Source: Chrysochromulina tobinii (taxonomy: Eukaryota). From it: a DNA stretch of 36,574 bases. Every line of letters starts with the position of its first letter. Position 1 is the stretch's first letter. The notes under the pieces were generated by a model. It saw only the letters and a program-made list of their open reading frames with translations. It ran no database searches and had not been told where the DNA came from. The DNA lies in assembly GCA_001275005.1 (NCBI GenBank), contig JWZX01002989.1, positions 1 to 36,574 on the forward strand, read 5' to 3'. A program made the position numbers and the translations under genes. This document shows, piece by piece, positions 9,204 to 33,214 of this stretch.

Positions 9204-10406
9204 TCACTTCCACAGCTTCTTGAGCGACGTGTTCTTCTCCGAGTCCTTCTTCATCACCTTGGCGACCGCCATCTCGAAGTCGTCCTGCGTCACGTGCACG
9301 CGCCGCTCGCGCAGCGCGAACATGCCCGCCTCCGTGCAAACGGCCTTGGTCTCGGCCCCGGAGGCCTCGTGCATCGACTTTGCAATCTTGCGAAGGTCGA
9401 TGCCGCGGGTCAGGTTCATCTTGCGACTGTGGATGGTGAGAATGTCGAGGCGCGCGTCCTCGTTCGGGTTCGGGAACTCGATCTTGCGATCGATTCGGCC
9501 CGGCCGCAGCAGCGCTTGGTCGAGGATGTCAATGCGATTCGTGGCCATGACCACTTTAATTTGGTTGGTGGCCTCGAAGCCATCCAGCTGGTTGAGGAGC
9601 TCGAGCATCGTGCGCTGGACCTCCGAGTCGCCGCCGGACTCGCCGTCCTGGCGCGCGCCGCCGATCGAGTCGATCTCGTCCATGAAGATGATCGAGGGCG
9701 CATGCTCGCGCGCCATCACGAAGAGCTCCCGTACCATGCGGGAGCCCTCGCCAATGTACTTTTGGACCAGCTCGCCGCCCGAGACACGGATGAAGGTGCA
9801 ATCCGTGTGGTGGGCGACCGCGCGCGCGAGCAGCGTCTTGCCTGTGCCTGGCGGGCCGTACATGAGCACTCCCTTGGGCTGCGCGATCCCTAGAGACTCG
9901 AAGAGCTCAGGATGCTTGATCGGCAGCTCGATCACCTCCTTGATCTCCTTGATCTGCTTGTCGCAGCCGCCAACCATGTCGTAGGTGGAGTCGGGCACCT
10001 TCTCGACCTTCATGAGCGACACGAGCGGGTCCACCTTGGATGGCAACACCAGGTGCAGCGCGTACGAGTCGTTGCGCAGTGCGACGCGGTCATTGACGTT
10101 GAGCTTGCCGATGTCGATCGACTTGTCGATGTCGACGACGTACTTGCCCTCCGGGTGAACCTTGACGAGCACCTTCTTACGCCCCATGATCGCCACGAGC
10201 TCGCCCACGTACGAGCCCGGCTCCTGCAGCAGCGACAGCTCCTCGCGCAGGTGGCGCACCATGGAGTTCAGCTCATTGCGCTGGGCCTCGAGACGACGTA
10301 GGTTTTGTGTGCGCTCGCGCACGATGACCTCGAGCTCCTCGATCTTGGCGGCGTAGTAGTTCTGGATGCCGCCCGAGGCGGACGTTGGCGCCGCCACCTT
10401 GGCCAT
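9204..10406 (-). CDS. PSMC5: 26S proteasome regulatory AAA-ATPase subunit 8 (Rpt6), 400 aa, intronless
   Basis: [45 protein letters not shown], Walker [47 protein letters not shown] and C-terminal SLKKLWK. ATG at 10406. Confidence 0.97.
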
Positions 10407-10936
10407 GGTCTTGAAGGGAAAGGGGTCGCGGCGCGGCGGGGAGAGGACGTGTGCCTCTTCACGTGTGCGTCGTGTGAAGTGCGAAAGCGAGGGCGCGTGG
10501 CCAGAGGCACAGTGGATGGGGGTGCAGAGCGAGGGGGAGTAGCTGTTCAACACAACGCGATCGGTCAGCCCACATGATGATGGAGGCAAAAAGACGGCCA
10601 GGGCTCGTTCGACACGACCTGGTGCTCCGCTGCCACCCTCGCTCATGTCTTTATTCTATACTTTTTAGCGATACCTTTAGAGCCCGCACCCGAGTTTCAG
10701 ATTGCGCGCCGCTCGGAAAAGCTGACGGCAATTTTACGCGGCGCGACGTATCAACGTACACGAAATTTTTTCAAATTACTGGACTGAGGACTGAGATCGA
10801 TCTCATGACACTCGTGAATACGATTCGACACGACACTTCACTTTGGGCTGGCGCTCACTGGTAGCCTGCAGCAGCAGTCTCGGCTGCAGCCAGGCTCGGT
10901 TCCGGCTCGCCCGCCGGACCGGCGCAGCAGCTCGCG

Positions 10937-13900
10937 ATGCGCTTAGTACTCGGGAGTGCTCGGGCGGTCGCCGTGGTGGCCCCGTCGTCGCAGCAGCGCT
11001 CGCTTCAGCGTCTGACGGCGGCCGCGTTGCACAAGACGGCGACGACCAGCATCTTGCGCCACGGCCAGTGGATAGTCGTGGGGGCCACGCGCCCGGAGCG
11101 CGAGGCGGCGGCGCGGGAGGCTGTTCAGGTCGTGAGGCCTTGGCTGCTCTCGGGCGTCGACGCCTCTGCGACCAGCAGCAGCAGCGGCGGCGGCGCCGTC
11201 GACGGCGGGGGTGGCGGCGGCCTTGGCCTCGACCGCCCCCCGTTGTTGAGCTTGCGCGAGGAGCAGAAGCAGGTGATGCTCAACGGCGCCCACGTGATGG
11301 CCAGCGCGATGGGTGCCGTGGCACTCACGGCGACGAGCGCGGCGGAGGCTGCGCGCACGGCGCTGCTCCTGGCCGCCGTCGTTGCACGCCTTGCGCTGGG
11401 CGCAGGCCCGTCCGGTTTGCATGCAACGCTCGAGACGACGCGCGGCCTCCAGTTTGGCGTGGCCAAGGCGAGCGGCAGCTCGTCCGACGAGAGTCGCCAC
11501 GCGCCCAAGCCGCCCAAGCTCGCCATCTCCGCCAAGGACAAGGAGAGTTCGAAGCTCCCAAGCCCACCCCGACCTCCATCGGAGAAGGAGGACAAGACGA
11601 CCAGGAGTGCACCGAAGCTCAACAGCGCGCGCGGCGCGAGGAAGGCGGCGGACAACAACCCTCTAGGCGGCGGCTCCAGTAGCGCGCGCGGAAAGCCTGC
11701 GGAGAAGAAGAAAGAAGGGGGCGTCTCCGAGAAAGGGACCCCCCGCTCCGCCGCCACGTCGAAGCCGTCGGTGTCGCTGCCACCACCCCAAGACGGAAAG
11801 CCGAGCTCCGCTGCGCCGCCGTCGGGGGCCGGCGGAGGCGCCTCTGCTGCGGCCCCAGCGCCGAGCGCGCGTGCCATGTCGGCGCCAAGTGCCAAATCCA
11901 AGGGACCTACGGCTTCCAAGGGCGCGCCTGAGACGAAGAAGCTCGAATTGTATCTCGAGCCGGAGGTGCCCAAGCCGGCGGGGTTGGTGTACCAACCCAT
12001 CCCGCCCTTGCCCGCAAGCATCAAGAAGCCCCCGGGCGTGCCGATCATCTCGCCGGCGGGCACGCGTCCTCGTGGGCGACAGGACGGCGCGCCATCTCGG
12101 CACGATCTCGCACCCACCGATCGGATCGGGTGGGCGCTCCTCTTCAACTGCTTCAAGGCAAAGTTTGAGGTGCGTCCGAGTGCTCCTTTCTGATGGCCCT
12201 ATCCGAGGACCCTTTCTGATGGCCTCCTCTGATGACGAGCACCGATTGGCTCCCTCATCAGGTGATTTCGGGCGACGCGACGCTGCTCTCGGACCACGAC
12301 CCTTTCGATCTCAAGGGACCCAGATCGGGCACGTCGATCGGTCGTATCAAGATCGCCCCTGCGAAGGGGACCCCTCTGGTCGAGCGCGTCGAGTTTTCGA
12401 ACGACTGGCTCCTGGCCGATCTGCATGGCGTTCAGCATGACTACTACCAAGGCGAGGGCACCATTGATCTCAAGGTGGAGTGGCGCAAGGAGACTGGCGG
12501 TGTCGAGTCGATCATGATTCGCGTGACGCCCTGGCTCGCGTACGCGTGCTCGGTTGGGTGCCGCATGCAGCTGCGCAAGCCGGGTGAGGCCGAAGGTCGC
12601 ACGTGCACGGTGCAGCGCGTGCTGCCGGACGATCGATGCGTGGTGCGGGTCGACGGCCTCTCCGGCACCGACCCTAAAAAGGCAGTCGGTTCGGCCGAAG
12701 ACGTGGTCGATGCCTCGCCCTCCACTTGTGTGCCCACATCGAATCGTCGCTACCCGGCGGGCGCGCGCCTGCTCGTGCTGCACGAGGCAGCGTGCTCTGA
12801 CGCGGTCGTCGAAGATTGGGGAGGCCCAATAGGTGTGCTTGGCACGGCGCTCGGCCCCATCCCTCGCAACTGCCCAAGCATGCATGTGCTCACCACGGCA
12901 CCACGTCCCGGCTGGACAGATCCCAAAGAGTGCCCAAGCATGCATGTGCTCACCACGGCGCCACGTCCCGGCTTGACAGATCCCAAGGAGGGCTCGCGGC
13001 ATCGACTCTGGCTCGCCCAGGGCGGCGCCGTCTTTGGCTGGGTCACTTGCAAGACGACAAGCAACATCAACAACCTGATCCCCTCGGGAATGGAACTACC
13101 CGAAACCCTCCCTTCGGAGCTCAACCCGCTCAGCCCGACAGAGGTCACAGTTCCGGCAATTCAGGCCGAGATTGAGTTCACTGTGGGCAGCCTGATGCAG
13201 GTGCGCGCGCCCACCGGCCACGCATGAAGCGCCGTCCCGAGCGTGCGCGCACTCGAAGCGCCGTTCCGAGCGCCCGCATGATGCACTGCTGCTCACCGAT
13301 CCCTCCCCCGCCCTGATTCGGCAGGTGGTCACCCCCCAACCGCTTGTGATGCGTGCGGGCTGCCATCTCTCGACCGCGCGCGTGGGCGTCCTTCCACTCA
13401 AGACGGAGGTCCGTCTGCTTGAGATCCGGATGCACGACGGCGGGCTGCGTGCCCGGGTCGAGAGGGTCGCTGCCGAAGAAGACGCCGTCGTGATCACCGC
13501 CGACCTGAATGATGTGAATCACAGTGTGCAGCGGTTCACCTCTGCCGCAGAGTACGAGTCCGCACGCTGTTCGTACTGTGACGAGGCTCGGAAGCAGCTT
13601 GAGTATGTAGAGGATGCGATCACGGGATCCGACCTGCCCATCGCCGAACAAGTGATCTACGTCAACACGAGCGAGTACGTCGATGCGGCCAAGAACATGC
13701 GTCCCGAATGGAAGGCCATCAAGGAGGGCATCGATATGGTCGAGGTGCGTCTCCAGCCCACGCAACGCCGTCCCGAGCGCTCGAAGCGCCGTATCGAGCG
13801 CCCGCAAGCACCTTGGCATCTGCTCAGCTGATCCGTCCCCTCCCCCCCCTGGAATCCCCCCCCCCCCTGGTTCACCCTGGGTTGGCAGGTGCTCCTCAAG

Positions 13901-16900
13901 GCTTCGAAGCGCCGTCCCGAGGGCATGCACCTGGCGCAGCCCGGCCTGGTGGTCGCCGGCCCAGGCACGGGCACCACCTGGATGGTTCGTCAGATCGTGC
14001 ACTCGTGCGCGACGAAACTCACCGATTCGGATGCGCTGGGTGAGGGCGGCGTGCGCCTCGTTCCCGTGATCGTCTTCGTGCAGCGCATCGTCCGCCTGCT
14101 GCGCGACACGGGCACTGACCCATGGAACGTCGTCAAGAAGCGGCGCATGATGATCTGGTACATTGAGAATGAGTTCCCTGGCAAGTCCATGAAGCTCTTC
14201 CGCGACTGCCTGTGCCAAGCTTACGACATGCGCGCGCTGGTCATCCTAGTGGACGGTGTGGATGAGGCCGCCTCGCTCAGGCTGCATGTCGAGGAGTTCA
14301 TCCACTACGAGCTCGTGCCCAGTGGGAATCGGTTACTGGTCACCTCGCGTCCGGAGGGCATTACCATGCCCTTGTACCTGACCAACTTCGCCGTGGTCTC
14401 GCTCCGTCCGCTGACGGAGAGCCAGCAGCGTCGGGTGGCGCAATCGCAGATGCGCGGATCGGCGTTCTATGAGCACCTGGTCGCCATCACCGCCGCGCGC
14501 AAGCGGCAGGACGAGCTCTGGCAGGAGCACTACCCCACCGAGGCGGTGCGCACGAAGCTCGAGTCAGTCGAATTCACACCGAGCGCGGCCGATTCTACCG
14601 GTCCCTCGCTCTTGATGCGCACAAGCCCGACGCCCAACAGCGACTCGACGCCACCACTCTCCCCCGTGACGCCTGAGCGCAAGAAGATGCAGATCATGAT
14701 GGCCAAGGGCTCCGAAATCGAGGAGCAGACTGCCATTGATACCCTCGATCAAATCATTCGGTCGGTCGCGACCGAGTCGGGCATGGCGCCCGACGACGTC
14801 GAGAATGCGCTGTCGTGGCTTGACGAATCTTCGGCTGACCGCATGCCGCGGAAGATGGAGATGGAGGAGGACATTGCGGCCTTTGCGCGGCTCGAGCTGC
14901 GCGGCGAGGAGATCTACACTGCCGTGCTGATGAAGCTCATCGACGGCGTCGAGGTCGAGATCGTGTATGGGCCCGACCTCGACGAGAAGGAGAAGCAGCG
15001 CCTTGCGGTCTTCGCGCCCGAACGGCTCGCCGCCATGCTCGACAACAAGGCGAAGCTCACGCTGCTGTACCTCGAGAATCGGTTCGCCAAGTTCGACCCA
15101 ACGCACACGCGCGACATTCTGACGTACCTCAAGATGCGTTACAAGGGGCAGACGCTCTCGTGCGAGTTGCAGCTCATCCACACCGAGATCTTGCAGGTGA
15201 CGGAGCGAATGGACACGTACTCGCACCTGCGCTACTTCCGACTGCAGGCCGCTCTCAAGCTCGAGCCAGGTGCCCTCATGCTGCCCCCTGCCGAGCTCGA
15301 CAAGAAGTTCGAAAAGTCGTTGCTCTTTGCCGAGGAGGCGAGTGGCGTGCCCGTGCTGCTCTCCATGTTCGTCCTCATCCTCGTCTCGGGCGCGGATGAT
15401 CTGGCGGCGCTCCCCACCTCGCGCCTCGAGCTGTACCAGACGGCGACGGACTCGGCGCTGCGCCGGCGCATCAAGCGCACGCTGCAGGTGGCGCCTTTGA
15501 TCGCCTCTGATCGCCTTTGATGGCCTCTGAGTGTACTGGGAGGCCATCTGCTTGCATTTCGGCGCACGGTGCAGGGGGGTGCCCTTGATCCTCCTTGATT
15601 GCCATCGATCGCCACTGATGAGCTTCGTCCGTGTGCAGGCGCCCAAGGAGGACCCCGCGGCGCCCAAAATCAAGAAAGATCAGAGCGACCCCGCCAAGCC
15701 CCTGGCGGCGACGGATCCCAAAGTGGCCGAGGCGGCCAAGGCGGCGGAGGAGAAGGCGGCGGCCGAGAAGGCGGCGGCTGAGAAGGCGAAGGCGGAGGCG
15801 CTTCTGGCGCTCGCGGCCCAGGCGGTGGCGACCAAAGCCGACGAGGGGGCCAAAAAAGGCGTCAAGGAGACGCCGAAGGAGAAGGAGAGGAGGGAGAAGG
15901 AGAAGGAGAAGGAGCTGCTGAAAGAGAAGGCGGCCAAGGAGAAAGAGCGAAAGGCGGCTGCCGGCCAGGCAACGCTCAACCTTGCCGGTGCGATTCCGCA
16001 GAAGCTCGAGCCGTTGAAGGGAGAGGAGTCGGTGGTGGCCGTGCATGCCGTCACGATGAAGATCCTCGAGAAGGTGCGCAACGGCGACAACCTTCGCGAC
16101 TCAATCCAGCGCTACGTGCCCGAAGGCAACAAGCTGCGCCCTTGGGTCAAGGCGCTCGTCGAGACGGCCCTCGAGCCGGCCAACTTGTCGGCGCAGCCGT
16201 GCGGTCTGCGGATGCTCCGACGCATTGCCATCGCCAATCAGGAGGCGGGCAGGCGTGAGTTCTCCTCGAAGGACGTGGCGCTCGTGCTCTGCTCACATGG
16301 CGATGAGCTCATCCTGTGGTTGCGGCTCGAGCAGGTGCGTCCACTGATTGCCTCTGATTGCCTCTGATTGCCTCTGATTGCCACCCTAATCTTTGGATGC
16401 GGCACGAGCAGGTGCGCGGATGGCCTCTTGATGGCCTCTTGATGGCCTCTGATGGTCTCTGATGGCCATCTGATTGCCTATAAAGGCGTCTCATCACGCC
16501 TCCTCCTTTGAGCACGGCTCATGAGCAGAACCAAGAGTACGGCGTCGCGCTCATCAAGATGCTCGAGCCACCGACGGACACGCTCCCGGCGGTGTACCAG
16601 TTCAAGCATCTCTCCTTCCAGGAGGGCTTGTTCGCGGAGCATCTGCTCTCCGTCGTCGAGGACCCTTCCTGGACTGGCTGGGATAACGATGTGGTCGCCG
16701 CCGCCTTTTTGAACAACGCGTACATGAACAACACGTGCCGCATCGCGGCCGGCCAGCTGGGCACCTTGCTGGCCAAGCGGCGCAAGGCTTGGAAGTTTTC
16801 GGTCGTTGAAGGCTCAAGTTTGGGCATTGTGGGCCGGCGTGCGCTCTGGTACTTGCTTGAGGGCAACGAGACGCTGCAGATGCTCGACCTGAGCGGCAAC

Positions 16901-19900
16901 GGTGTCGGATTGGAGGACGGCATGGGCATCGTCAACCTGCTCCGCAGCTGCGCGGCGCTCAAATCGCTCGACTTGTCCGACAACAGCCTCGATACCCTCA
17001 AGCGTTCACAGCTCTCGGCTGTGTGCCGCTCGCTCGGTGGGAACGTGAAGCTGACGGAGCTCAACTTGTCGAACAATCGTCTGGGGTCGGACGGCTGCAA
17101 ATCGATCTGCACCGCGCTGCAGGGGTGCATCTCCCTACGCTACCTCGGCCTGAGTCACAACCAACCGATGCGTGAGATGGCGCTCCCGAATCTTCTCCAG
17201 ACTCACAAGTCGCTCACGGACATTTCGATCGTCGAGGCGGACTCGAAGTGGCTCGACAGCCGCGCCAAGGACAACATTGGGCAAGCACTGCTCCAGAACG
17301 AGGGTGGCAAGCTTTCCTTTTGCGAGTGCGACTCGTTTGCGCTCACTCCGGAGACCAAGTCGCTCATCTGGACCTCTTCTCTCCCGGCGGATGCAGTGCT
17401 CCTCGCGGGGGTGCTCAAGACGAACACGACGCTCACCTCGTTCGCGTCGGCGGCGGGCAACAAGCTCAACGACGCGAGCCGCGCCGCTATCGGGCGGGCG
17501 CTGCTCCAGAACAAGAACGGTCGCGTCGGCTTCTGCGACGAGCTCGGACTGCGCGAGGGGGTCAAGTCGACAGAGATCGACCTCTCCACGTCCTTTCACT
17601 CGGTCGAGGCGTTCATGTTGCTCGCGGGCGTGCTGCGCGCCAACCGCACCCTCACGTCGCTCACGATGAACTCGCTCAAGACCGAGCACATCGAGCCGCT
17701 CGCCGAAGGCCTCCGCTCCAACTCGACGCTCGAGATCTTGAGATTGCAATCCTCATCCAACAAGGCCGGCCCGGGCGGCAAGCTCACGGTCGTGACGCTC
17801 CCAATCCAGCTGCTCAACGGTGCGCTCCAGCAGCCGATCATCGACCTCTCCTCCGCGGGCACCCTTTCGCGCGTCTCGTGCGCCGTCGTGGGCGTGCTCC
17901 TCGCCGAGAACAAGACCGTTCAGACCCTCAAGCTTTCCAAGACAGGCCTCGGCTCGGTCGTGCAGGCCGAGGGCGGCAGCATCATCTTCGATCCGCTCTC
18001 GGGCGGGGAGTCGACCCTCTACCAGCTCGACCTGTCGGAGATGGAGCTCGGCGACAACGGCGGGCGCAAGATTTTTGAGGCGCTCCTCACCGGCCGCTGC
18101 CGACGGATCACATCGCTCATCCTCTCGTCCAACGGCCTCTCGGACGAGACCGCGCGCGTGATGCACCAGCTGCTCCAGAATAACGAGGTGTGCACCCTCA
18201 CCTCGCTCGACCTGTCGCACAACATCATCAACGCGGGCATGCTCTCGCGCGCCATCAAGCGCAACACGACGCTCAAGTTCCTCAACGTCAAGGGTTGCGG
18301 GCTGAGCGAAGAGTCGCTCAGCGACATTGGCGACTACCTGCTGGGCGACGACTGCAAGTGCGTGGATGGCCCCTGATGGCCCTTGACGGCCCCTGATGGC
18401 CACTGATGCCCTCTGGTGCCCACTGATGCCCGCTGATGCCCACTGATGCCCACTGATGCCCACTGATGCCCACTGATGATGGCTGATGGCTGATGATGGC
18501 TGATGATGGCCGCTGACGAGCTCTGATTGCGCCCATCATCAGGTGCCGACTGGGCCAGATCCGATGTGATCTGTTCGAGATCGAAGACGGAGCGACGCAT
18601 CTCGAGCTCATCTCACGCAAGCTCTCGGTCGCCACCTCGCGCGTCCTCTTCGGAGTGCTCAAGCACAACACGTCACTCAAATCCGTCTCCATCCTCGGCT
18701 GCGGCATCGACGCCGAGGGCGCCAAGGCGCTCGAGATGGCGCTCTCGACGAACACCTCGATCACGCTCATCGACTTGTCAGGTAACAAGATCCACACGAG
18801 TTCGGAAGGCGTCCAGGCCCTCACGCGCGCCGTCGAGCGCAACAAGCGGCTCGAGAAGATGATCCTCGACGGGCCCGGCTCCGATCTCGTCTTCAAGGAG
18901 CTCCGCGTCGCCGCGCACCTGAACATGAACGGGAAGCGGCTGCGGCTGCTATCGGGGCGCCGTGATGGGCGCCCTCGTCGCCCCGAACCTCAACCTCACC
19001 GATTTGAACCTCGAGAACAACGAATGCCTCGGACCGGTGGGCGCGAACGCCATCGCGGTCGCCCTCACGCAGCGCCAGTCGACGCTCAAGTACCTCAACC
19101 TCGCCGAATGTGGTCTCGCCGGATCCAGCTCTTGGGAGATCACGACGGCGCGCTCGGAGCGCTCAGCTACTGGCGAGGACGACGAGCCGGTCGGCGGCGC
19201 TCGGAAGGAGGACTTCCTTGAGCCCGAGGCGCCCCTTAAGCGTGAGAAGCGCGTCAAGAACGTCACCAACGCCACCAACGCCACCAAAGGGTCGAAGAGC
19301 GATGCCAAGGTGGACGAGAAGCCCCTCGAGTTCGATAAGTTCAAATCGGATCTGGATATCAAGACGCGCGCGCAGCTGACCGAGCTCATGGTCTCCATTG
19401 GCCAAATCTCGACCCTCGAGTCGTTGACGCTCGACAAGAACGCTCTCGCGGACGCCGAGTCGGCGCTCCTCACCCCGATCGGAAAGCTCTACAATCTGCG
19501 CTCGCTCTCGCTCTGTGGGAATCGTCTGACCGAGGTGCCCTCTTCCATCGGCTCCTTGCGCTCTCTGCAGGAGCTGTTGTTGCGCTCGAACCAGCTCAAC
19601 GAGCTTCCGAACGCCTCGATCGGGCTCCTCGGGTCCCTCGAGAATCTCGATCTCAAAGGCAACCAGCTCACGTACCTGCCCGACTCGATCGGGCAGCTGC
19701 GCACTCTCAAGTCGCTCGATGTGTCCGAGAACAAGCTGACCGAGCTACCGGCTTCCTTCGGCCTGCTTCGCGACACGCTCAAGCTGTCCGTCTCGCGCAA
19801 CCCGCTCCAACGCCCGCCCCTCTCGGTCGCGCGCCAGGGCATCGATGCGATCCGTCGCTACTTCAATGAGCTCAAGAAGAGCGGATCGACGACGAGCCGC

Positions 19901-22624
19901 GCGGCGCGCCTCGTGCTGCTTGGCGCGGGGCTCGCCGGCAAGACGTCGCTACAGCGCGGGCTGCGGCATGGGGCGGCGCGCCCAGCCAAGCTCGACGAAC
20001 GGACGATCCAGCTCGACATCCACACGCTACCCCTTGGCTCGGGCGCCGAGCAAGTCGTTCTCTCGATGTGGGATTTGGCCGGCCAGCCCGAGTACGCTGC
20101 CGGGCTGCAGCCGTACATTGTGCCGGGCTCCCTCTACCTGCTTGCCGTGCCCGCGCAGCTGTGCGCGGACGAGCACTACCCCGATGTGCTCGGCCGCTGG
20201 CTCGACTACCTTCAGGCAGGCGCGCCCGAGGCCGTGGTGCAGGCGGTGCTCACGCACTGCGACGAGCTGTTGCCCGAAGGGACTGCAGGCAAGGGGAACA
20301 TGTCAACGTCCGCGCTCGAGGAGGCATGCGAGCTCCAGGTGCGCTGGGTGAAGGAGAGCATGCGGCGGCACCAGGGCAACCTGCCCGCGGGCTCGAAGAG
20401 GCTGCTCATCCAGGACGCCGTGCCGTGCGTGTGCGCCGTCGCGGGCGGCGACGCTTCCCTCGCCAACCTGCGCTCACGCCTCGAGGCGATCGTGCTGGCG
20501 AAGCCGCCGCTGCTCCCTTGCATCGGAATGGCGATCCCGCGAACGTGGATCCTTGCGATGGGCTTCCTTCGCGCGCTTCGGGACGGTCGAGACCCTGTGG
20601 CCGTCGTCACGCAGAACTCGCAGCCGGAGGCATCGGCCGAGCGAGCCGTGCCGTACGTGCCGCTCGCGGATGCGATCCAGCTCTGGGTCGATGTGGTCGC
20701 CCCCAAGCTGCAGGTCGCGGCCGATGGCCAGGCGATCGAGGATACGCTCCAGGTCCTCGTCAATCAAGGCGAGTTCTTCGCGTCGAGCGGCATCATCTTC
20801 TTGCAGCCCGACTACGTGACGCGGCTACTCAAGCCGCTCGTCGACCATCGCGTCAACAAGGTGAACAAGGTGGCGGAGACGAGCCTTGGCGGGACGACGA
20901 TCCTTGGCTTCACTATCAAGGATCCCGTGCGCGTCGCGCTTCTCTCGTCGGCGGTGTCCACGTTTGTGGGCAAGGGCGACCTGCGCGAGGAGCTGTTGCC
21001 GTTGCTCTGGGAGCCTGTCGGCCTGCATGAGGACGACTACGGCTCAGTCCTCATGATGCTGTGCGCGAGCGGCGTCCTCTTCCTCGCCGAGCACACGCAG
21101 CAGGGGCGCAAGTGGATCATGCCGATGCGCTTGCCCGAGACACAGCCAGCAGAGCAGCTCGCCAAGTGGCATCGTCTGCGCACGTCCCCCGGCATCGAGC
21201 AGCTCGGCGTCGTGTACCCGCTCGGCGCCCTCGCCCCCCCGGGCATCGCCGAGCGGCTCATGTCGCACCTGTACGGGTTCGGCAAGTACCACGCGTTCTG
21301 GAAGGGCGGCACCCTCATCGAGACGCGTGTGCACAATGCGCTGCTGCTCGTCGAGCTGCGCACAAGGGACGGTGGCCAGGACTCGAGAGAAAGGCACCAG
21401 GATTTACACGAGCTCGTCCTCGAGCTGCGCGGGCCCAAAGCCCAGCGGAGCGACCTGTTCGCGCTGATCCTCAACGTGCGCAAGCGGACAGAGGTGCTGC
21501 TGCACGACTTTCCTGGGCTGCTCATCGCGGGCAAGCTCTCGTGCCCGGGGTGCGTCTTTGACGCGAAGCACTCGTTCGACCCGTCGCGCTGGGCCCTCGA
21601 TGAGGTCACTAGCCGTCCGCAGACCTGCCGCAAGTGCTCCGAGAACGTCTCCCTCGAAGGCGTCAAGATCAGCCAGATCGACGAGATGGGGGGAGGTGCG
21701 GAGGAGATTTCGCTCGCGCTGCCCTCGCGCGAGGGGATGAGCGTTATGAATGAGAACAAGTACGTGGGGGAGCTGCTCCGGCTCGGAACCCCAATTGAGG
21801 CGAGACAAGGGATCCACCGGTCTCTCAACGTGTCCGGCAAGCTGCTCTGGGAACGCTTCTCTGAGGGCGAGGAAGCCATCCTCAATGAATTCATGCAGAA
21901 CATTTCGCAGGAGCGTGATGCGATGGGCTGGTCGGACGGCGACTGGCTCCACTACGTCCTCTCGCAGACCGCCGACGAGCGCACGCTGCCTGTGGGCTAC
22001 TCGTCGACCAAACTCGATAAGGGGCACAAGGGCATGGCGCTCGACGACTTTTGCAAGCACCCGATCGCGGTGGGCGCGCGCCTCGACCGCGCCCACGTGC
22101 TCGCGCTGCGACTCTACTCCACCTCGGTCTTCCGATCGATCAACCGGCCGCTTCGCGAGGCGCGTAAGCATCCGTACCCCGCGCTCGTCTCACGCCTCGT
22201 CGACGGCATCGTCAGGCTGCGCGCGTACCAGTCTCAGAGTGATGTTCAGCGCACCTACGAGTTCTGGCGCGGGATGCGGGTCGAGGCGAGTGATGAGTTC
22301 TTCGCGCGCGGCACGACCGAGCTCGCCTTCTCGCCCACAATGCGCACTGAGCGCAAGGTGGCCGAGAGCATGGTCACGAAAGATGGCGCGAACGCGTCCG
22401 TGCTCATTCGGCTCCAGCTGACCATGAAGGAGGCGGGTGCCGATATTTCGTGGCTGAGCGTCTTCCCCGGAGAAGGAGAGTTCCTCTTCCCTCCGGGCAC
22501 GTACGTGGAGCCAAAGCCCTCGCGTGGAGCGACGATCCCTGGCGCGGTCCGCGTCATCGACGGCTTGGTGCACGTCAAGGAGCACCGAATCGAGCAGCTC
22601 GCACCGCGCGAGGCCTCCCCATGA
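10937..22624 (+). CDS. Giant multidomain NLR/ROCO protein (~3550 codons): disordered N-terminus, NACHT-type NTPase with RelA/SpoT-like insertion, RI-like LRRs, typical LRRs, Roc GTPase, COR, CxxC pair and ART-like domain. Exons 10937-12169, 12262-12832, 12980-13200, 13325-13744, 13889-15487, 15639-16334, 16529-18357, 18543-22624, with one apparent +1 frameshift at 18954-18957
   Basis: All seven proposed GT-AG introns join successive ORFs in frame. NACHT motifs: GPGTGTT (Walker A variant), LVILVDGVDE, LLVTSRPEG, VPVLLSM, RLELY, YQFKHLSFQE. LRRs: LxxLDLSxN, LxLxxNQLxxLPxSIGxL. Roc: GAGLAGKTSL, WDLAGQ, VLTHCD. ART-like: LALRLYST, FWRG, GADISWLSVFPGEGEFLFPPGTY. The start codon is uncertain. Confidence 0.75.
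12170..12261 (+). other. Intron 1 of the giant gene (GT-AG)
   Basis: gag|GTGCGT ... catCAG|gtg. Phase 0; contains an in-frame stop and ctgatggcc repeats. Confidence 0.8.
12833..12979 (+). other. Intron 2 of the giant gene (GT-AG, stop-free, contains a 60-bp tandem duplication)
   Basis: atag|GTGTGC ... ttgaCAG|at. Phase 1, giving WGGPIDPKEG. The duplication 12871-12930 / 12931-12990 provides two candidate acceptors (12919 and 12979). Confidence 0.6.
13201..13324 (+). other. Intron 3 of the giant gene (GT-AG)
   Basis: cag|GTGCGC ... cggCAG|gtg. Phase 0. Confidence 0.8.
13745..13888 (+). other. Intron 4 of the giant gene (GT-AG)
   Basis: gag|GTGCGT ... tggCAG|gtg. Phase 0; poly-C tracts near the 3' end. 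Confidence 0.8.
15488..15638 (+). other. Intron 5 of the giant gene (GT-AG)
   Basis: cag|GTGGCG ... gtgtgCAG|gcg. Phase 0; tgatcgcct/tgatggcct repeats. Confidence 0.8.
16335..16528 (+). other. Intron 6 of the giant gene (GT-AG) with an internal AG|GT at 16411/16412
   Basis: cag|GTGCGT ... gagCAG|aac. Phase 0; ctgattgcct and tgatggcct arrays. Confidence 0.75.
18358..18542 (+). other. Intron 7 of the giant gene (GT-AG) with ctgatgccca decamer array
   Basis: aa|GTGCGT ... catCAG|g. Phase 2, yielding DDCKCRLGQIRCDLF, which parallels the earlier FCECDSF and GFCDEL LRR-unit motifs. Confidence 0.85.
19900..21520 (+). other. Roc GTPase and COR domains of the giant gene
   Basis: G1 GAGLAGKTS, G2 T (RTI), G3 WDLAGQ and G4-like THCD, followed by COR-type motifs (IPRTW, IFLQPDYVTRLLKPLVDH, PPGIAERLM, FWKGG). 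Confidence 0.85.
21940..22575 (+). other. C-terminal mono-ADP-ribosyltransferase-like (R-S-E clade) domain of the giant gene
   Basis: ALRLYST..FRSINRPLR, FWRGM, TELAFS, GADISWLSVFPGEGEFLFPP. The ExE motif is retained; the STS/STT motif is atypical. Confidence 0.7.
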
Positions 22625-23500: not shown

Positions 23501-24859
23501 CTAAGGCGAGTCGACCGCCGCGAAGAGCGATTTGGCCTTAGCAGTGTAATGCGCGGCGTCCAGATGCTGCGCGTGCAGCATCCGGCACATGTGCTGCAGC
23601 AAATTGCGCTGGATCACCACGTATTGGGCGAGGCGCGTGACCTGCTCCGTGCTCATGATGGGACCCCGGGTTGCATTTGCCTGAGCTGCGAGTATCTCAG
23701 CCAGTAAGGCCAGGTCTATCCCCTGCCTTTCTAGTTGCTCATCCACTTCCGTGTGCGTCGGTAGCTGCGTGAGAGTCGCCTGATACTGCTCGCTCAGGAT
23801 TGAGCATGCAAAGTTCGGCGACTTCACCACACATGGTGGGGGCGGCTTAGCCGCAGCGCGCAGGTGGAGCGCGGCGACCGGCGTAAGGAAGGCGAGCTCG
23901 GAAGTTGCGGGAAAGGTGATGGTTGTCTTTGGGGCAGGGGAGGAGGCAGATTTTTCCATGTTGGTGCCGGAAGGAGGAGATGTGGGCGAGGCTAGGGACG
24001 CCGTTGCAGCCACGAACGTCCGAATAGGGCTCGCTTGCACACGCTCCAGCTGCCGCCACTCCGACGCAGCCTTGGCCGATGCCTTCAGATCGTGCGTCAC
24101 CTCCGGAAGTTGGCTCATCGGTAGCGGCGGCCCGTCCTTGGCCTCGGTTAAGATCTGTACGCTTGTGGCCTCGGTTGAGGTCTGTACGCGAACAAGCGAC
24201 GAGTCTCCGACAGATCGCCAGCTCGTGCCAAGCAGCTCAATATAAGAGTGCGCAGGCAGATTGTCGACGTCACTGTCGATGTCAGCGGCGTCAGCTTCCC
24301 GCCAGCCGGCGACTTGTGCGAGGTCATTCTTGTCAATGCCGTCTTGTGGGGAGAAAATGGAGGGATGAAGACCATTGGTGGCGGCCGGAGCCTCAAGAGA
24401 TGGCGACGACAGCGACGTCTCGCCGTTCGTCTCGAGAACATCCAGAAAGTCTTCCAGCATCACGAGCTGCTTTTCGGCCGACTGCCCCACTGCCTCACGG
24501 CAACAATGGGCGGCCCGGTACTTTTGCAGGTGCGAATTTATTCTTTTGCGCGTGTGGACGTCGCTCTCCGAATCAACGCCCATGAGCTGCCGGATGGCCT
24601 CTGGCTTTGCTGATTTCAAGCCAAGCCGCTGCACCGCATCTTCGAAGCGCCGGTGCAAGTCAGCGGTCCAAACGAAGCGGCTCGAGCGGCGGCGCTTTTC
24701 GTCCTGCTCGACCTCGTCACTGCTGCTGCCGTTGCCGTTGCCACTTCCATGAGTCCCAAGTTTGGAATGCAGCCCTCGCTTTGGGCGAGAGCTGGTGCGG
24801 CGACGAGCAGGATAACTTAAGCTGTCGCAATGGGCGGCGGCGGAGGACGAGGAGGACAT
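23501..24859 (-). CDS. GARP/SHAQKYF-class Myb-like transcription factor (~452 aa)
   Basis: RFVWTADLHRRFEDAVQRLGLKSAKPEAIRQLM...RKRINSHLQKYR at ~24515-24680. First ATG at 24859. Confidence 0.85.
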   Translation of the reverse strand: MSSSSSAAAHCDSLSYPARRRTSSRPKRGLHSKLGTHGSGNGNGSSSDEVEQDEKRRRSSRFVWTADLHRRFEDAVQRLGLKSAKPEAIRQLMGVDSESDVHTRKRINSHLQKYRAAHCCREAVGQSAEKQLVMLEDFLDVLETNGETSLSSPSLEAPAATNGLHPSIFSPQDGIDKNDLAQVAGWREADAADIDSDVDNLPAHSYIELLGTSWRSVGDSSLVRVQTSTEATSVQILTEAKDGPPLPMSQLPEVTHDLKASAKAASEWRQLERVQASPIRTFVAATASLASPTSPPSGTNMEKSASSPAPKTTITFPATSELAFLTPVAALHLRAAAKPPPPCVVKSPNFACSILSEQYQATLTQLPTHTEVDEQLERQGIDLALLAEILAAQANATRGPIMSTEQVTRLAQYVVIQRNLLQHMCRMLHAQHLDAAHYTAKAKSLFAAVDSP

Positions 24860-25203
24860 CCTCTCCACGTGTAGGAGCTGCGTGCGTCTCCAGATTGATC
24901 TGATAGCGTGCACCCAAGCTACTCCTGCGGCCGCAGCATCGCACTTCGCAACCCCAAAGGGGAACTCGGTCCCGACGGCGACGCTTGGCAGGCATAAGGA
25001 AAGTTATTTATGGATCGTGTTCCGGCAAATTCAGGTGTGGCGGGAACGCGGTAATCATAAAATATTATAATCGGGACTCAGCGTCCTCGATTACCCCGCG
25101 TCCTGATCTTGTGAATCGGAAACGTGCGCCTAGTCCCTAGTTCACTCAGTCTCAAGTCTGACACTCGCGCTGTTCCCGGCCACTGCGCACTGGCGCTGAC
25201 ATT

Positions 25204-29112: not shown

Positions 29113-30509
29113 TCACTCGAGGTCAGGCCAAGAGCCAGACTTCTTCTTGAAGGTCGCCTCACGCAGTCCGCCCGAGTCGACAGACCATGAGCCCAAGCGC
29201 AGCTGGGCATTGGAGCCGCCCACCCTGGCGCCTCCCTTGCTCATGGCGCCATAACCGCCACGACGCTCGGCGGTGGCGTCCGCATGGGCGGATGCCTGCG
29301 CGGGATCAAGAGCCGGCTGCGGCTCGGCATCGTCATCTGACGAACTCGGCCCGTCGTGGATGGCGAGTCGATCTGCGCGATCTGACGATCTCGGCCTTAA
29401 TCTCGGCCCGTCGTGGATGGCGAGTCGATCTGCGCGATCTGCGCGATCTGCCATGCCCAACACGGAGCCCATCATCATGTTCGAGGACGGTGCGAGAGGC
29501 AGATCCGCGCGCTGTGCAAACCCCTGAGCTTTGGCGAGCGCATCCAAATCGATCGAGAGCCGATGGCTGTCTTCGGCCTGGTCCTCGCACGCCATCCCGA
29601 GAGCACTCAGGCCCCCGGGGTAGCCAAAGCTCATACGATGGTGGCTCACTGCATGGAGCTGATGGCTGCGCTCGACCTGCGAACCGAGAGTAAAGGTGAC
29701 CAAAGGTGAGCAAGGGTGAGCAAAGGTGAGCAAAGGAGGGTTAGAGAGTCAGACGGGAGGGGAGGGCCAGGTGAGTGGCGAGCCAGCATGAAGGGTCAAG
29801 CGGGCGGGTGGCGACTTGCCTGTAGGATGAGTTCCTCCATCAGCAGCGCCACCGCGCCGCCTGTGTCCTCTTCGTCGCCCGCAGGGCCGAGATTATGCCA
29901 TGGTTGATCGGCGGCGGCGAGCACTGTCGCGAACCCTACCGATGATGGTGTTCGACGCCCGCTCTTTTTGCGAAAGGTGGCGTCGCGCATGCCGCCCGAG
30001 TCCGACCACGAGCGCACGGCGGCACGCGCCGACTGCGGCCGCTCGTCCTCGTCGTCATCGACCTCGAGGCCGGTTAGCTGGCGCGCAAAGTTCGCCGACT
30101 TCGGCAACGCCTTCTTCAGCGGCAGCGCCACCAGCAGTCCATTGCTGCTGCTGCTGCCGCCGCCGCCGCCGCCGCCGACGCCGCCGCTACCGAGCTTGCC
30201 GTAGCCACCGCCGCTCTTGACCACCGGTTTGGCTAGGCCGCCGTAGCCACCGCGTGCTGCCACAGGCCGCTCCGTCGCTGGTGCAAGCGCCGCCGCCGAC
30301 GACGGAGCGATTACGTCCATCTGCATAGGTGCACAATCGCCCGCCTTCACGTCCCTCGAGCCAGCGGCTGCGGCCGCGAGAGTGCTGCGGTTGGAGCGCG
30401 GGCTCGCCTCACTGTTGTAGAAACTTTCATGGAAGGAGCACTTGGGCGCCATGTGGGAGTCAACCCGCGCCTTGATGGCTTGCTCGGCAGGAGACTCGTG
30501 CCCGACCAT
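29113..30509 (-). CDS. Hypothetical low-complexity protein with an internally duplicated motif; exons 30509-29820 and 29676-29113 (~417 aa)
   Basis: Two ORFs are joined in frame by a GC-AG intron 29819-29677 (cag|GCAAGT ... ttcgCAG|gtc). Both halves carry RGGYG..K and SWS(V)DSGG(M/L)R(D/E)ATF(R/K)KKSG. Confidence 0.6.
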
Positions 30510-30620
30510 TCATCAGCAGCAATCACAAATCCGCACGCGATTTTAGTCCAATGGAGCTCAGAAGGATTGGCTGAATTGTATTCTGTGGTTCATTCAAAAC
30601 TTCCATATTGCAAGCAATCA

Positions 30621-33214
30621 ATGGTGTTCTCTTTGGTTGCCCTTTGCAGCGCCTTCCTGGCGCCGCAGGCGCCACATCGACTGCCACTCGTTACGCCTCT
30701 AGCCGCGACCGCAGCCATTCGACGTGCTGGCGCCATCGTTCGCATGCGCACGCTCGAATGGCGCTTGTTTGGCGTTGAGGTGCCAGTGCTGGAGTCTGGG
30801 CCTGACAACCTGCTCAACGTGTCGTCGGCGCTGCATCGCGCGGTCGCCCAGCAGCTCAGTCTGGAGCCGGAACGGCTGCCCATCAACAACGTCCACCTCG
30901 TTCGCCAAAGCCTCGACGCGCGGCCGCGTGGAGGGCGTCGCGGCCGCAGCGGCTCAGGGGACAGCGACCGCGACGTGTGCTGGTCGCACGTTGTGGACGT
31001 GACGCTCACGCCCGAGCAGGCGAAGCGCATCAAGGCACAGCCCGGGCGTATCATGCCATCTGCGGAGGAGCGTGTCGCGCCTTTCCTTGTGCCGCCGCCA
31101 CCAAACCAGGCTCTGGACAAGGCGAGCGCGGGTGGCGCAGCAGCCTCCTCGGCGGCATCGCACGTGCTCGTGGTGGGCGCGGGTCCGTGCGGCCTCTTCG
31201 CCGCCCTGACCCTCGCACGCGCGGGCGTGCGCGTCACGCTCCTCGAGAGAGGCAAGCCAGTCGAAGAGCGAGGTCGGAGCATCGGAGCCTTGATCCAGCG
31301 TGGGGTGCTCGACCCAGAGTCCAACTTTTGCTACGGCGAGGGAGGGGCGGGTACGTGCTCCGACGGCTAGCTTGATATGCTCGCGCTTGAGTGCGCCTCG
31401 GAGTGCCCCTCTGAGTGCGCCCGATGGCCTCCACCATCAGGTACGCCATGCCGCCCTAGTTGCCACTGATTGTGATTGATTGCCACTGATGGCCTCCACC
31501 ATCAGGTACGTGGTCCGATGGCAAGCTCACCACACGCATTGGTCGCAACTCGGCGGCCGTGAGGGCGGTCCTGGAGACCTTCGTGCGCTTCGGCGCGCCA
31601 CGTCGCATCCTATACGACGGCAAGCCCCACCTTGGCACCGACGCTCTAGTTAGGTTGCTCAAGCGCTTTCGACAGGAGCTCCTCGGCTTCGGGGCGACAG
31701 TGCGATTTGATTCACGCGTGGATGAGCTCGTGCTCGAGGCGGGTGGGGGCGCGGCGGGGGGGGGAGCTGCGCTCGAGACGGGGAGGGGCGCGGCGGCAGA
31801 GGCACGGGTACGTGGGCGCGTGCTCGGCGTGCGTCTCGCGACCGGCGAGACCATCCTTGCCGATGCCACCCTCCTCGCCGCCGGCCACTCGGCCCGTGAG
31901 CTGTATGAGCAGCTCGTGCAGCTCGGGGCATCGGTGATGCCCAAGGACTTTGCGGTGGGCTTTCGAATCGAGCATCCGCAGACGACGATCAACCGCGCTC
32001 AGTATGGGCCGATGGCAGACTATTGCGAGGACGGTGGCAAGGGAGCTCTACCGCCCGCTTCGTACCGCCTCACAACCACCGTCGCCGAGGACGCCGAGGG
32101 TGGCGACGAGGGCGGCGTCCAGCGCGAGGGTGAGGCCAAGGTCAGTCCCATCAACAAGCTGCGTGGCGGCAAGCCGCGCGGTGGCAAGAGGAGCACCGGC
32201 CGTGCCATTCACACTCCTCTTGCCATTCACACCGGCCGTGCGAAAGCACCCAGTGGCGAGGGCGGTGGCGGTGGCGGCGGTGGCGGTGGCGGCGGTGGCG
32301 GTGGCGGCGAGGCCGATCCCCTAGCACGCGGTGTCTACTCGTTTTGCATGTGCCCGGGCGGTCAGATCGTGCCCACAGCCATTGAGCCTGGACGTCTCTG
32401 TGTCAACGGCATGTCGTATTCGAACCGTGGCTCCAAGTGGGCCAACTCGGCCGTCGTCGTGTCCGTCGGAGCGGCCTTCGGCGACTTTGACGGCTTTGGG
32501 CAGGCTGGCGACGCATCCAAATTAGGGCAGGCTGGCGACGCATCCAAATTAGGGCAGGCTGGCGACGCATCCAAATTAGGAGGTACCCAAGCGGCCGATG
32601 GCGGGGCGACCGCGCCGCCCAAGGCCCTGCCCTCTCATTTGGATGCGACCCCTGTGACCAACGCGCCACCGGCCCCGCTCGCCGGGATGTGGTTTCAGGA
32701 GGAGATGGAACGGCGCGCGGCCCTCATGGGTGGCCCCGGGCTCTTGTGCCCGGTGCAGCGCGTCTCCGACTTTCTGCGTGGCGAGATTTCGTCTGCACCG
32801 CTCCCGCCATCGTCGTACCGGCGTGGCGTCGTGTCGGCGCCGTTGCACGAGCTCTACCCCGCGCCCATCACAGCGGCCATCCGGGTGGCCCTCCGCCGTT
32901 GGGGCCGGTCCATGGAGGGCTTTGACGGCGACGAGGCGCTGCTGCACGGCGTCGAGACCCGCACTTCGGCGCCCGTCCAGATCACGCGCCACGCGCCAAG
33001 CTGCGAGTGCGTCGGGCTGCCCGGTCTCTACCCGGCAGGTGAGGGTGCTGGGTATGCGGGCGGGATCGTCTCCGCGGCGGTCGACGGCATGCGAGTCGCC
33101 GAAGCGTTGCTTGCGAGTGGAGCATTGCGCGCCGAGGATGGCGAGGTGGCCACCGTCGCCGGTGGAGGCACCGTCACCACGAGCGCGACGGGCGGCGACC
33201 GCGACTACGACTAG
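30621..33214 (+). CDS. FAD-dependent oxidoreductase (uncharacterised FAD-dependent dehydrogenase family), probably plastid-targeted; exons 30621-31350 and 31506-33214 (~812 aa)
   Basis: VLVVGAGPCGLFAA...LLERGK, SNFCYGEGGAGTWSDGKLTTRIG (formed across intron 31351-31505), KPHLGTD, AAGHSAR, FAVGFRIEHPQ, YSFCMCPGGQIV, GVETRTSAP, PAGEGAGYAGGIVSAAVDG. The N-terminus MVFSLVALCSAF resembles a signal peptide + AF bipartite plastid presequence. Confidence 0.9.
31351..31505 (+). other. Intron (GT-AG) with an internal AG|GT at 31440/31441
   Basis: Removal restores the conserved GAGTWSDGKL motif. Phase 1. Confidence 0.88.
32498..32580 (+). repeat. 27-bp coding tandem repeat x3 (GQAGDASKL)
   Basis: gggcaggctggcgacgcatccaaatta is repeated three times identically. 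Confidence 0.9.

What the first reader, a model, noticed from the sequence alone, without database searches (positions are those of the whole stretch)
14820..15240. RelA/SpoT-type nucleotidyltransferase-like domain inserted inside the NACHT module
Seen: between the NACHT sensor region (VTSRPEG...LRPLTESQQ) and the NACHT helical motifs (VPVLLSM, RLELY) lies a ~290-aa insert ending in LLYLENRF...THTRDILTYL...SCELQLIH. Known: RelA/SpoT synthetase-fold domains show the pattern KNRF/Y...GYR(D/S)...ExQ. Inference: a degenerate copy (the upstream catalytic Asp and GY appear lost) could act as an integrated nucleotide-sensing or decoy domain, as in integrated-domain NLRs.
Basis: inference. Interest (0 to 1): 0.7.

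Follow-up and report, generated by a model that had tools for sequence, protein, structure and literature searches.

The report
Dead alarmone synthetase inside algal NLR
A giant immune-receptor-like gene, likely from a haptophyte alga, carries inside its NACHT switch domain a module predicted to have the fold of bacterial stress-alarm (RelA/SpoT) enzymes, which is likely inactive in this copy but keeps its catalytic-type residues in many related proteins, a layout the literature searches did not find described.

Summary
Confirmed and extended. The insert lies in one exon of a spliced gene of about 3,550 codons (NACHT-LRR-Roc-ART). It adds about 268 residues inside helical domain 1 of the NACHT, just before the GxP motif. 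No Pfam, PDB-sequence or profile test is significant. An alignment-based model (pLDDT 83) matches RelA/SpoT synthetases best in two fold searches (first 7 VIA rows, Z 11.4-8.7). The insert is family-wide: 37 of 57 retrieved proteins carry it, always at this site where context is visible. Named members come from Chrysochromulina and Prymnesium. Thirteen of 28 that span the domain keep all four synthetase-type motifs. The window copy lost the first Lys, the guanine-stacking aromatic and probably the Asp, and its NACHT Walker A reads GTT, not GKT. It most likely is a retained pseudo-synthetase acting allosterically on the NACHT. RelA/SpoT-NLR fusions are known in fungi and bacteria as terminal effectors; embedding inside the NACHT was not found in print. 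No activity is shown.

The parts
10937..22624 (+). Giant gene, about 3,550 aa, 8 exons: N-terminal region - NACHT with insert - LRRs - Roc - COR-like region - ART
   Evidence: L001 single ORF of 3,395 aa, open at 5' end; 7 GT..AG introns in RNA contigs; Pfam LRR, Roc, ART. The start at 10937 is inferred from the ORF list; length estimate.
13889..15487 (+). Single exon holding the NACHT nucleotide-binding core, the whole insert and the GxP motif
   Evidence: Splice joints 13742/13887 (+2) and 15482/15634 (+5); L001 alignment
13958..13978 (+). NACHT Walker A with Lys replaced by Thr (GPGTGTT)
   Evidence: 4 of 31 family Walker A motifs read GTT (window and orthologues P0003, P0005, P0006); 27 of 31 read GKT
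14246..14359 (+). NACHT Walker B (LVDGVDE) and sensor-1 (VTSRPEG)
   Evidence: Sequence; Pfam NACHT E 3.4e-4, below the curated cut-off
14450..14719 (+). Start of the insert: helix continuing HD1, then a low-complexity linker
   Evidence: Alignment; the most variable part among strain variants
14720..15241 (+). RelA/SpoT synthetase-fold domain, degenerate (pseudo-synthetase)
   Evidence: Model pLDDT 83.1; Foldseek; VIA; motif table
15344..15436 (+). Return to NACHT HD1: GxP motif (GVPVLLSM) and RLELY helix
16607..16624 (+). Winged-helix HLSFQE motif of the NACHT module
   Evidence: Sequence; the motif label is recalled knowledge of NACHT proteins
19922..20266 (+). Roc GTPase domain with intact P-loop (GAGLAGKT)
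   Evidence: Pfam Roc E 4.8e-9; coordinates
22055..22498 (+). C-terminal ADP-ribosyltransferase-like domain, the likely effector
   Evidence: Pfam ART 22.5 bits against cut-off 22.3; 22.1 bits on the full protein; R, S and ExE-type residues visible (motif reading recalled)

Best explanation
The insert is a predicted RelA/SpoT synthetase-fold domain that sits inside the NACHT module of a giant NLR-like protein, is likely catalytically dead in this copy, and likely acts as a built-in allosteric brace on the NACHT rather than as an enzyme. Shown: position, splicing, family-wide presence, motif loss here, motif retention in paralogues, and the Walker A Lys-to-Thr change. Predicted: the fold. Inferred: an ancestral haptophyte NACHT gained the domain in a loop of helical domain 1, beside the GxP motif that lines the nucleotide pocket, so NACHT activation could gate a pyrophosphate-transfer enzyme. 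Several paralogue lineages then lost catalysis but kept the domain. In the window's lineage both the synthetase site and the NACHT P-loop decayed. That leaves a sensor- or scaffold-type receptor whose output is likely the C-terminal Roc-COR-ART part or a partner paralogue.
For: Fold: the first 7 VIA rows are RSH enzymes (SpoT 7qps Z 11.4, rmsd 3.1 over 110; CapRel 10.8; Rel 10.7; SAS2 10.6), and the first non-RSH row is Z 8.3. Every listed Foldseek row down to rank 27 is RSH/SAS, best E 4.1e-4. Position: 22 of 37 domain-bearing proteins show Walker B upstream, 33 of 37 show GxP downstream and 21 show both; none of the 15 without Walker B has the domain more than 450 aa from its start. Motifs: 13 of 35 non-redundant members (13 of 28 that span the domain) keep KxPxRxxxK, DxxRxR, T(H/R)(F/Y)R and Ex(Q/E); the window has none of the first three. 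Retention: the core is 87.5% identical over 64 aa to orthologue P0004, against 77.6% over 701 aa downstream. Degenerate forms fall in at least three separate subfamilies of the NACHT tree. Precedent: the top structural hit is a pseudo-synthetase described as a regulatory domain that does not bind GDP (PMC9974481 passages). In some plant pairs the sensor NLR tolerates P-loop mutation (PMC9528088 passages).
Against: No sequence test reaches significance. Pfam PF04607 gave no hit in 18 proteins; PDB profile searches found no RSH; profile-profile P = 0.094, score 16.0 against 7.5-12.5 for 20 column shuffles and 11.6 reversed. Foldseek TM-scores are only about 0.3-0.4, and other Pol-beta-like transferases reach Z 8.3, so the family call is less sure than the superfamily call. 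The model rests on a 37-row alignment dominated by paralogues; the window sequence alone folded at pLDDT 38.7. The window keeps Arg, Glu, Gln and His of the core, an Asp one residue off register and an RxxxK, so inactivity is not proven. The whole domain (71.5%) is no more conserved than its flank. The tree root is unsure and the outgroup branch is very long. No allosteric role, partner or immune function was tested. Searches were seeded with this insert, so the fixed position is partly ascertained.
Confidence: 0.6

Rival explanations
1. The pseudo-domain is a ligand sensor or decoy: it binds a nucleotide signal or a pathogen protein aimed at active synthetases and so triggers the receptor.
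For: The acceptor-side strands and helix are the best-conserved part (87.5%). Motif-bearing paralogues exist that a pathogen could target, e.g. C. tobinii KOO31139.1. The viral fold library lists a RelA/SpoT-named protein of a giant virus, weakly (Fadolivirus, E 0.094). Plant integrated domains are proposed decoys.
Against: The guanine-stacking aromatic is Thr here, and a pseudo-synthetase lacking it did not bind GDP. Strain variants show only 2 amino-acid changes each in the domain against 5 and 3 silent ones, so there is no sign of arms-race diversification, though counts are small. No ligand or viral partner was identified.
Confidence: 0.2
2. The window copy is still an active, atypical nucleotidyl- or pyrophosphoryl-transferase with a shifted catalytic register.
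For: RxxxK (RMPRK; RMSSK in P0004), an acidic residue six before the conserved Arg (D here, E in P0022 and P0023), and R, ExQ and H are retained.
Against: The first Lys is replaced by acidic residues. The RxxxK is missing in P0022 and P0023. The gap from that Lys to the Asp is 6 residues, against 13 in E. coli RelA and over 20 in motif-bearing paralogues. The aromatic of GY is lost.
Confidence: 0.1
3. The insert is a Pol-beta-superfamily fold of another family, or only a structural relic that became irremovable once embedded, with no regulatory role.
For: TdT and TENT-type enzymes score Z 7-8.3; sequence profiles are not significant; degeneration is common in the family.
Against: RSH rows lead both fold searches. 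The profile alignment puts DVLRCR on DVRAVR and ELQ on EIQ unprompted. The core is conserved above its flank.
Confidence: 0.1

Closest known systems
Fungal RelA_SpoT-NACHT NLRs (Dyrka 2014, PMC4986451; Sordariales survey PMC12258605; passages read)
   Same: A RelA/SpoT synthetase domain and a NACHT in one polypeptide.
   Different: There the domain is an N-terminal effector, with WD40 or unannotated C-termini in the examples seen. Here it is embedded inside HD1, is missed by PF04607, and the protein continues with LRR-Roc-ART.
Bacterial NACHT proteins with alarmone-synthetase effectors (Kibby et al., bioRxiv 10.1101/2022.07.19.500537; passages)
   Same: Alarmone synthetases are listed among NACHT effectors; the Walker A Lys was needed for defence in bNACHT01.
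   Different: The described layout is N-terminal effector, central NACHT, C-terminal sensor. The window copy lacks that Lys, and no prokaryotic relative of this insert was found.
Pseudo-synthetase of Acinetobacter baumannii SpoT (PDB 7qps/7qpr; PMC9974481, passages)
   Same: Top structural match; a dead synthetase fold kept as a regulatory domain, with the guanine-stacking Tyr and catalytic Asp lost.
   Different: It regulates an adjacent (p)ppGpp hydrolase; here there is no hydrolase and the neighbour is a NACHT.
Plant integrated-domain sensor NLRs such as RRS1, RGA5, Pik-1 (PMC9528088, passages)
   Same: A non-canonical domain inside an NLR; the P-loop is dispensable in some sensors.
   Different: Plant domains are described at the C-terminus, N-terminus or before the NOD. 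Here the domain is within the NACHT module and shared by a whole family.
Algal plastid-type RSH enzymes (PMC6881373, passages and supplements searched)
   Same: Haptophytes have RSH synthetase domains.
   Different: The Chrysochromulina entries seen carry canonical KDY..NGY..EIQ motifs. The supplements hold no NACHT and no KOO31139.
LRR-Roco proteins of brown algae (PMC11378527, search listing and abstract start only)
   Same: LRR-Roc-COR proteins proposed as algal immune receptors.
   Different: The window protein adds a NACHT with the insert and an ART; whether that paper mentions such forms was not read beyond a zero count for NACHT.

Membership tests
RelA/SpoT synthetase domain (PF04607) | Synthetase fold (Pol-beta-like mixed sheet with RSH helices) | tested here: met
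   Predicted model; first 7 VIA rows RSH, Z 11.4-8.7; Foldseek best rows SAS
RelA/SpoT synthetase domain (PF04607) | Pfam profile match | tested here: not met
   No PF04607 hit for the window or 17 relatives; own RSH profile best E 0.18
RelA/SpoT synthetase domain (PF04607) | ATP-binding basic motif RxKxxxSxxxK | tested here: not met
   Window has LDESSADRMPRK, first Arg and Lys absent; 13 of 35 relatives have KxPxRxxxK but none was seen with the leading Arg
RelA/SpoT synthetase domain (PF04607) | Catalytic Asp five residues before a conserved Arg | tested here: inconclusive
   Ile at that site and Asp one residue earlier in the window; Asp in place in 15 of 35 relatives
RelA/SpoT synthetase domain (PF04607) | Guanine-stacking Tyr of the GY motif | tested here: not met
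   Thr in the window; Phe or Tyr in 26 of 35 relatives
RelA/SpoT synthetase domain (PF04607) | ExQ motif | tested here: met
   ELQ in the window; ExQ in 10 and ExE in 13 of 35
RelA/SpoT synthetase domain (PF04607) | Pyrophosphate transfer activity | not testable with these tools
   Needs an assay
NACHT-type NLR | Walker A GxxGxGK[ST] | tested here: not met
   GPGTGTT in the window and 3 orthologues; GPGTGKT in 27 of 31
NACHT-type NLR | Walker B, sensor-1, HD1 GxP and winged-helix His motif in order | tested here: met
   LVDGVDE, VTSRP, GVP, HLSFQE; Pfam NACHT E 3.4e-4, under the cut-off
NACHT-type NLR | C-terminal LRR array | tested here: met
   Pfam LRR families above cut-off
NACHT-type NLR | Ligand-triggered oligomerisation and immune output | not testable with these tools
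   Needs experiments
Roco protein | Roc followed by COR | tested here: inconclusive
   Roc met (E 4.8e-9); no COR hit for the window protein; COR-B E 2.4e-5, under cut-off, in paralogue P0038
Integrated-decoy NLR | Integrated domain binds or is modified by a pathogen factor | not testable with these tools
   No ligand known

The most novel reading that the evidence does not exclude
Haptophyte algae have a family of NLR-Roco receptors in which an alarmone-type pyrophosphotransferase is built into the NACHT switch and fires on activation. It would make (p)ppGpp or (p)ppApp, or modify tRNA, in the eukaryotic cytosol as an immune or death output. Doubly dead paralogues like this one would serve as paired sensors or brakes.
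Probability: 0.3. Interest if true: 0.88.

Novelty: new variant of a known kind. Interest (0 to 1): 0.66.

Why it matters
It shows that the NACHT helical domain tolerates a whole enzyme domain next to its nucleotide pocket. It exposes a hidden RelA/SpoT-derived lineage that Pfam misses, in what are likely immune receptors of bloom-forming algae whose defences are barely described. It gives a direct test of alarmone-type signalling outside plastids in a eukaryote: a motif-bearing paralogue (C. tobinii KOO31139.1) and this degenerate copy form a natural active-versus-dead pair.

Tried and rejected
Intron or mis-assembly: rejected. Broken gene: the apparent frameshift at 18954 is an extra G in the window, absent from 4 of 4 loci and 4 of 4 RNA runs. 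Single-sequence fold: uninformative, pLDDT 38.7. Sequence searches of solved structures gave no RSH: 0, 2, 0 and 1 rows at E<=10, all unrelated. PHROGs: nothing under E 0.008 in 8 proteins. ESM Atlas: PF04607 clusters appeared at 0.84 (17% of members) and 0.82 (93%, haptophyte), both under 0.9, so leads only. Pattern scans for the family in viral contigs and prokaryotic genomes found none; each used one narrow pattern, so absence is weak. The viral fold library gave no match at E<=0.001. Profile-profile against 22 mostly long-RSH sequences was not significant. No whole genome is held, so paralogues in this genome could not be counted. Literature: 10 searches found no description of an RSH domain inside a NACHT or of this haptophyte family. 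Jimmy 2020 (PMC7229694), Wojciechowski 2022 (bioRxiv 2022.03.16.484565), the wheat NLR preprint (bioRxiv 339424) and PMC10434055 were searched by passage and added nothing decisive. Supplements of the Kibby preprint are closed and its journal version is not held; their architecture tables could list this family.

Full report
THE GENE. The window is eukaryotic. The finding lies in a gene on the + strand from about 10937 to 22624. Locus L001 matches the window in eight blocks without the intervening stretches and holds one ORF of 3,395 aa open at its 5' end. RNA contigs from 4 of 4 runs laid skip seven GT..AG introns; one joint shows in 3 of the 4. Fourteen of 18 listed runs that hold the exon are RNA libraries. 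The extra G at 18954 is absent from all four loci and all four RNA runs, so the gene is intact. Pfam finds NACHT (E 3.4e-4, under cut-off), LRRs, Roc and a borderline ART domain. A paralogue with the same layout is C. tobinii KOO31139.1, and another relative is from Prymnesium polylepis. That the window itself is a haptophyte is an inference from these.

THE INSERT. Sensor-1 to GxP spans 334 residues against 66 in the insert-free relative P0020 and 296-525 in four paralogues. The insert thus sits inside helical domain 1, just before GxP. That GxP lines the nucleotide pocket is recalled knowledge of STAND proteins.

THE FAMILY. A phmmer search of the insert against 1.84 billion representatives gave 17 hits; 13 match its C-terminal half at E 1.4e-5 to 7.3e-4. 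Two further searches gave 17 and 23 proteins. Of 57 proteins examined, 37 carry the core. Of those, 22 show Walker B upstream, 33 show GxP downstream and 21 show both. The 15 without Walker B all have the domain within 450 aa of their start, and the 4 without GxP end within 46 aa. No stand-alone form was seen, but the searches were seeded with this insert and many hits are fragments.

THE FOLD. The window sequence alone did not fold. With a 37-row alignment, residues 14720-15370 folded at pLDDT 83.1, pTM 0.72. Foldseek ranks small alarmone synthetases first (2be3 E 4.1e-4, 5ded E 8.8e-4). All listed rows to rank 27 are RSH, though TM-scores are only about 0.3-0.4. The wide VIA search gives seven RSH rows first: SpoT Z 11.4 (rmsd 3.1, 110 aligned), CapRel 10.8, Rel 10.7, SAS2 10.6, Rel 9.5, RelP 8.8, RelA 8.7; TdT follows at 8.3. 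Sequence methods do not confirm it: no PF04607 hit, no PDB hit, and a profile-profile P of 0.094, above 20 of 20 shuffles and in the right register.

CATALYTIC RESIDUES. Read against E. coli RelA, paralogue P0028 has KDPVRIHEK for KHIYSIWRK, DVLRCR for DVRAVR, THFRN for NGYQS, ELQ for EIQ and a HxY helix. The first of these pairings was made by eye; the automatic alignment placed RelA's first motif elsewhere. Of 35 non-redundant members (P0030 and P0038 dropped as duplicates of P0078), 13 keep all four motifs; 7 are fragments lacking the first half, so 13 of 28. None was seen with the Arg that precedes the first Lys in RelA, and many have ExE, so even these are not proven enzymes. The window keeps Arg, ExQ and His but lost the first Lys and the aromatic (Thr), and has Ile where the Asp aligns. 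An Asp one residue earlier and an RxxxK leave a small chance of a shifted site. The A. baumannii SpoT pseudo-synthetase, the best structural match, lost the equivalent Tyr and Asp, does not bind GDP, and is described as regulatory (PMC9974481).

A SECOND LOSS. The window's NACHT Walker A reads GPGTGTT, as in three orthologues; 27 of 31 relatives read GPGTGKT. In a tree of 31 NACHT cores the GTT rows form a clade (100/100) on a long branch, apart from motif-bearing subfamilies and from two other degenerate groups. Repeated loss with retention is the simplest reading, but the root is unsure.

CONSTRAINT. The C-terminal core is 87.5% identical to orthologue P0004 over 64 aa, against 77.6% over 701 aa downstream; the whole domain is 71.5%. 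Two strain variants each show 2 replacement changes against 5 and 3 silent ones in the domain. The counts are small but argue against decay and against rapid diversification.

MECHANISM. Most likely (0.6) the domain is a retained pseudo-enzyme that braces or tunes the NACHT in a sensor- or scaffold-type paralogue, with output through Roc-COR-ART or a partner. My separate odds are about 0.93 for the RSH fold and 0.85 for inactivity here; the allosteric role is inference by analogy. Rivals: ligand sensor or decoy 0.2, still-active shifted enzyme 0.1, other fold family or relic 0.1.

WHAT IS KNOWN. RelA_SpoT is a rare N-terminal domain of fungal NLRs, and alarmone synthetases are listed as effectors of bacterial NACHTs. 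Plant integrated domains are placed at the termini or before the NOD. The algal RSH survey has no NACHT and no KOO31139 in its text or supplements. Ten full-text searches found no report of an RSH domain inside a NACHT. The library lacks most subscription papers, and closed supplements could list the family. All papers were seen as listings, passages or supplement hits; none was read whole. Earlier scan notes hold no look-alike of this stretch.

VERDICT. A real feature and a correct fold call: a new architectural variant of a known pairing, interest 0.66. The testable prize is whether the motif-bearing paralogues are active.

Noticed in passing
window 18954: One extra G relative to 4 loci and 4 RNA runs; it falsely splits the giant gene before the Roc-ART part, so it is likely an assembly error.
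   Followed up: yes
window 13958-13978: NACHT Walker A Lys replaced by Thr in this orthologue group only, while the Roc P-loop is intact.
   Followed up: yes
window 12262-13744: A family-conserved region upstream of the NACHT with no Pfam hit here; paralogues P0045, P0049 and P0052 have SH3_3 hits in their N-terminal parts. Candidate undescribed domain.
   Followed up: no
window 22055-22498: C-terminal ART-like domain after Roc-COR; a similar C-terminal sequence is visible in C. tobinii KOO31139.1. A NACHT-LRR-Roco-ART layout is itself unusual.
   Followed up: partly
P0049 (2,173 aa): Two NACHT Walker B motifs in one protein, the second followed by the insert; P0053 has LRRs upstream of its insert-bearing NACHT.
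   Followed up: no
window introns, e.g. 15488-15638, 16335-16528, 18358-18542: Introns are filled with short degenerate repeats; intron 12833-12979 holds near-duplicate segments resembling the exon junction.
   Followed up: no
window 9204-10646 (-), 23501-24913 (-), 30429-33214 (+), 33532-34683 (-): Neighbours look ordinary: a proteasome AAA ATPase, a Myb-like protein, an FAD-dependent protein and a WD40 protein.
   Followed up: no
ESM Atlas: A 67-member eukaryotic cluster labelled haptophyte (taxon known for 1 member) with PF04607 on 93% of members; a possible source lineage of the insert, score 0.82 only.
   Followed up: no
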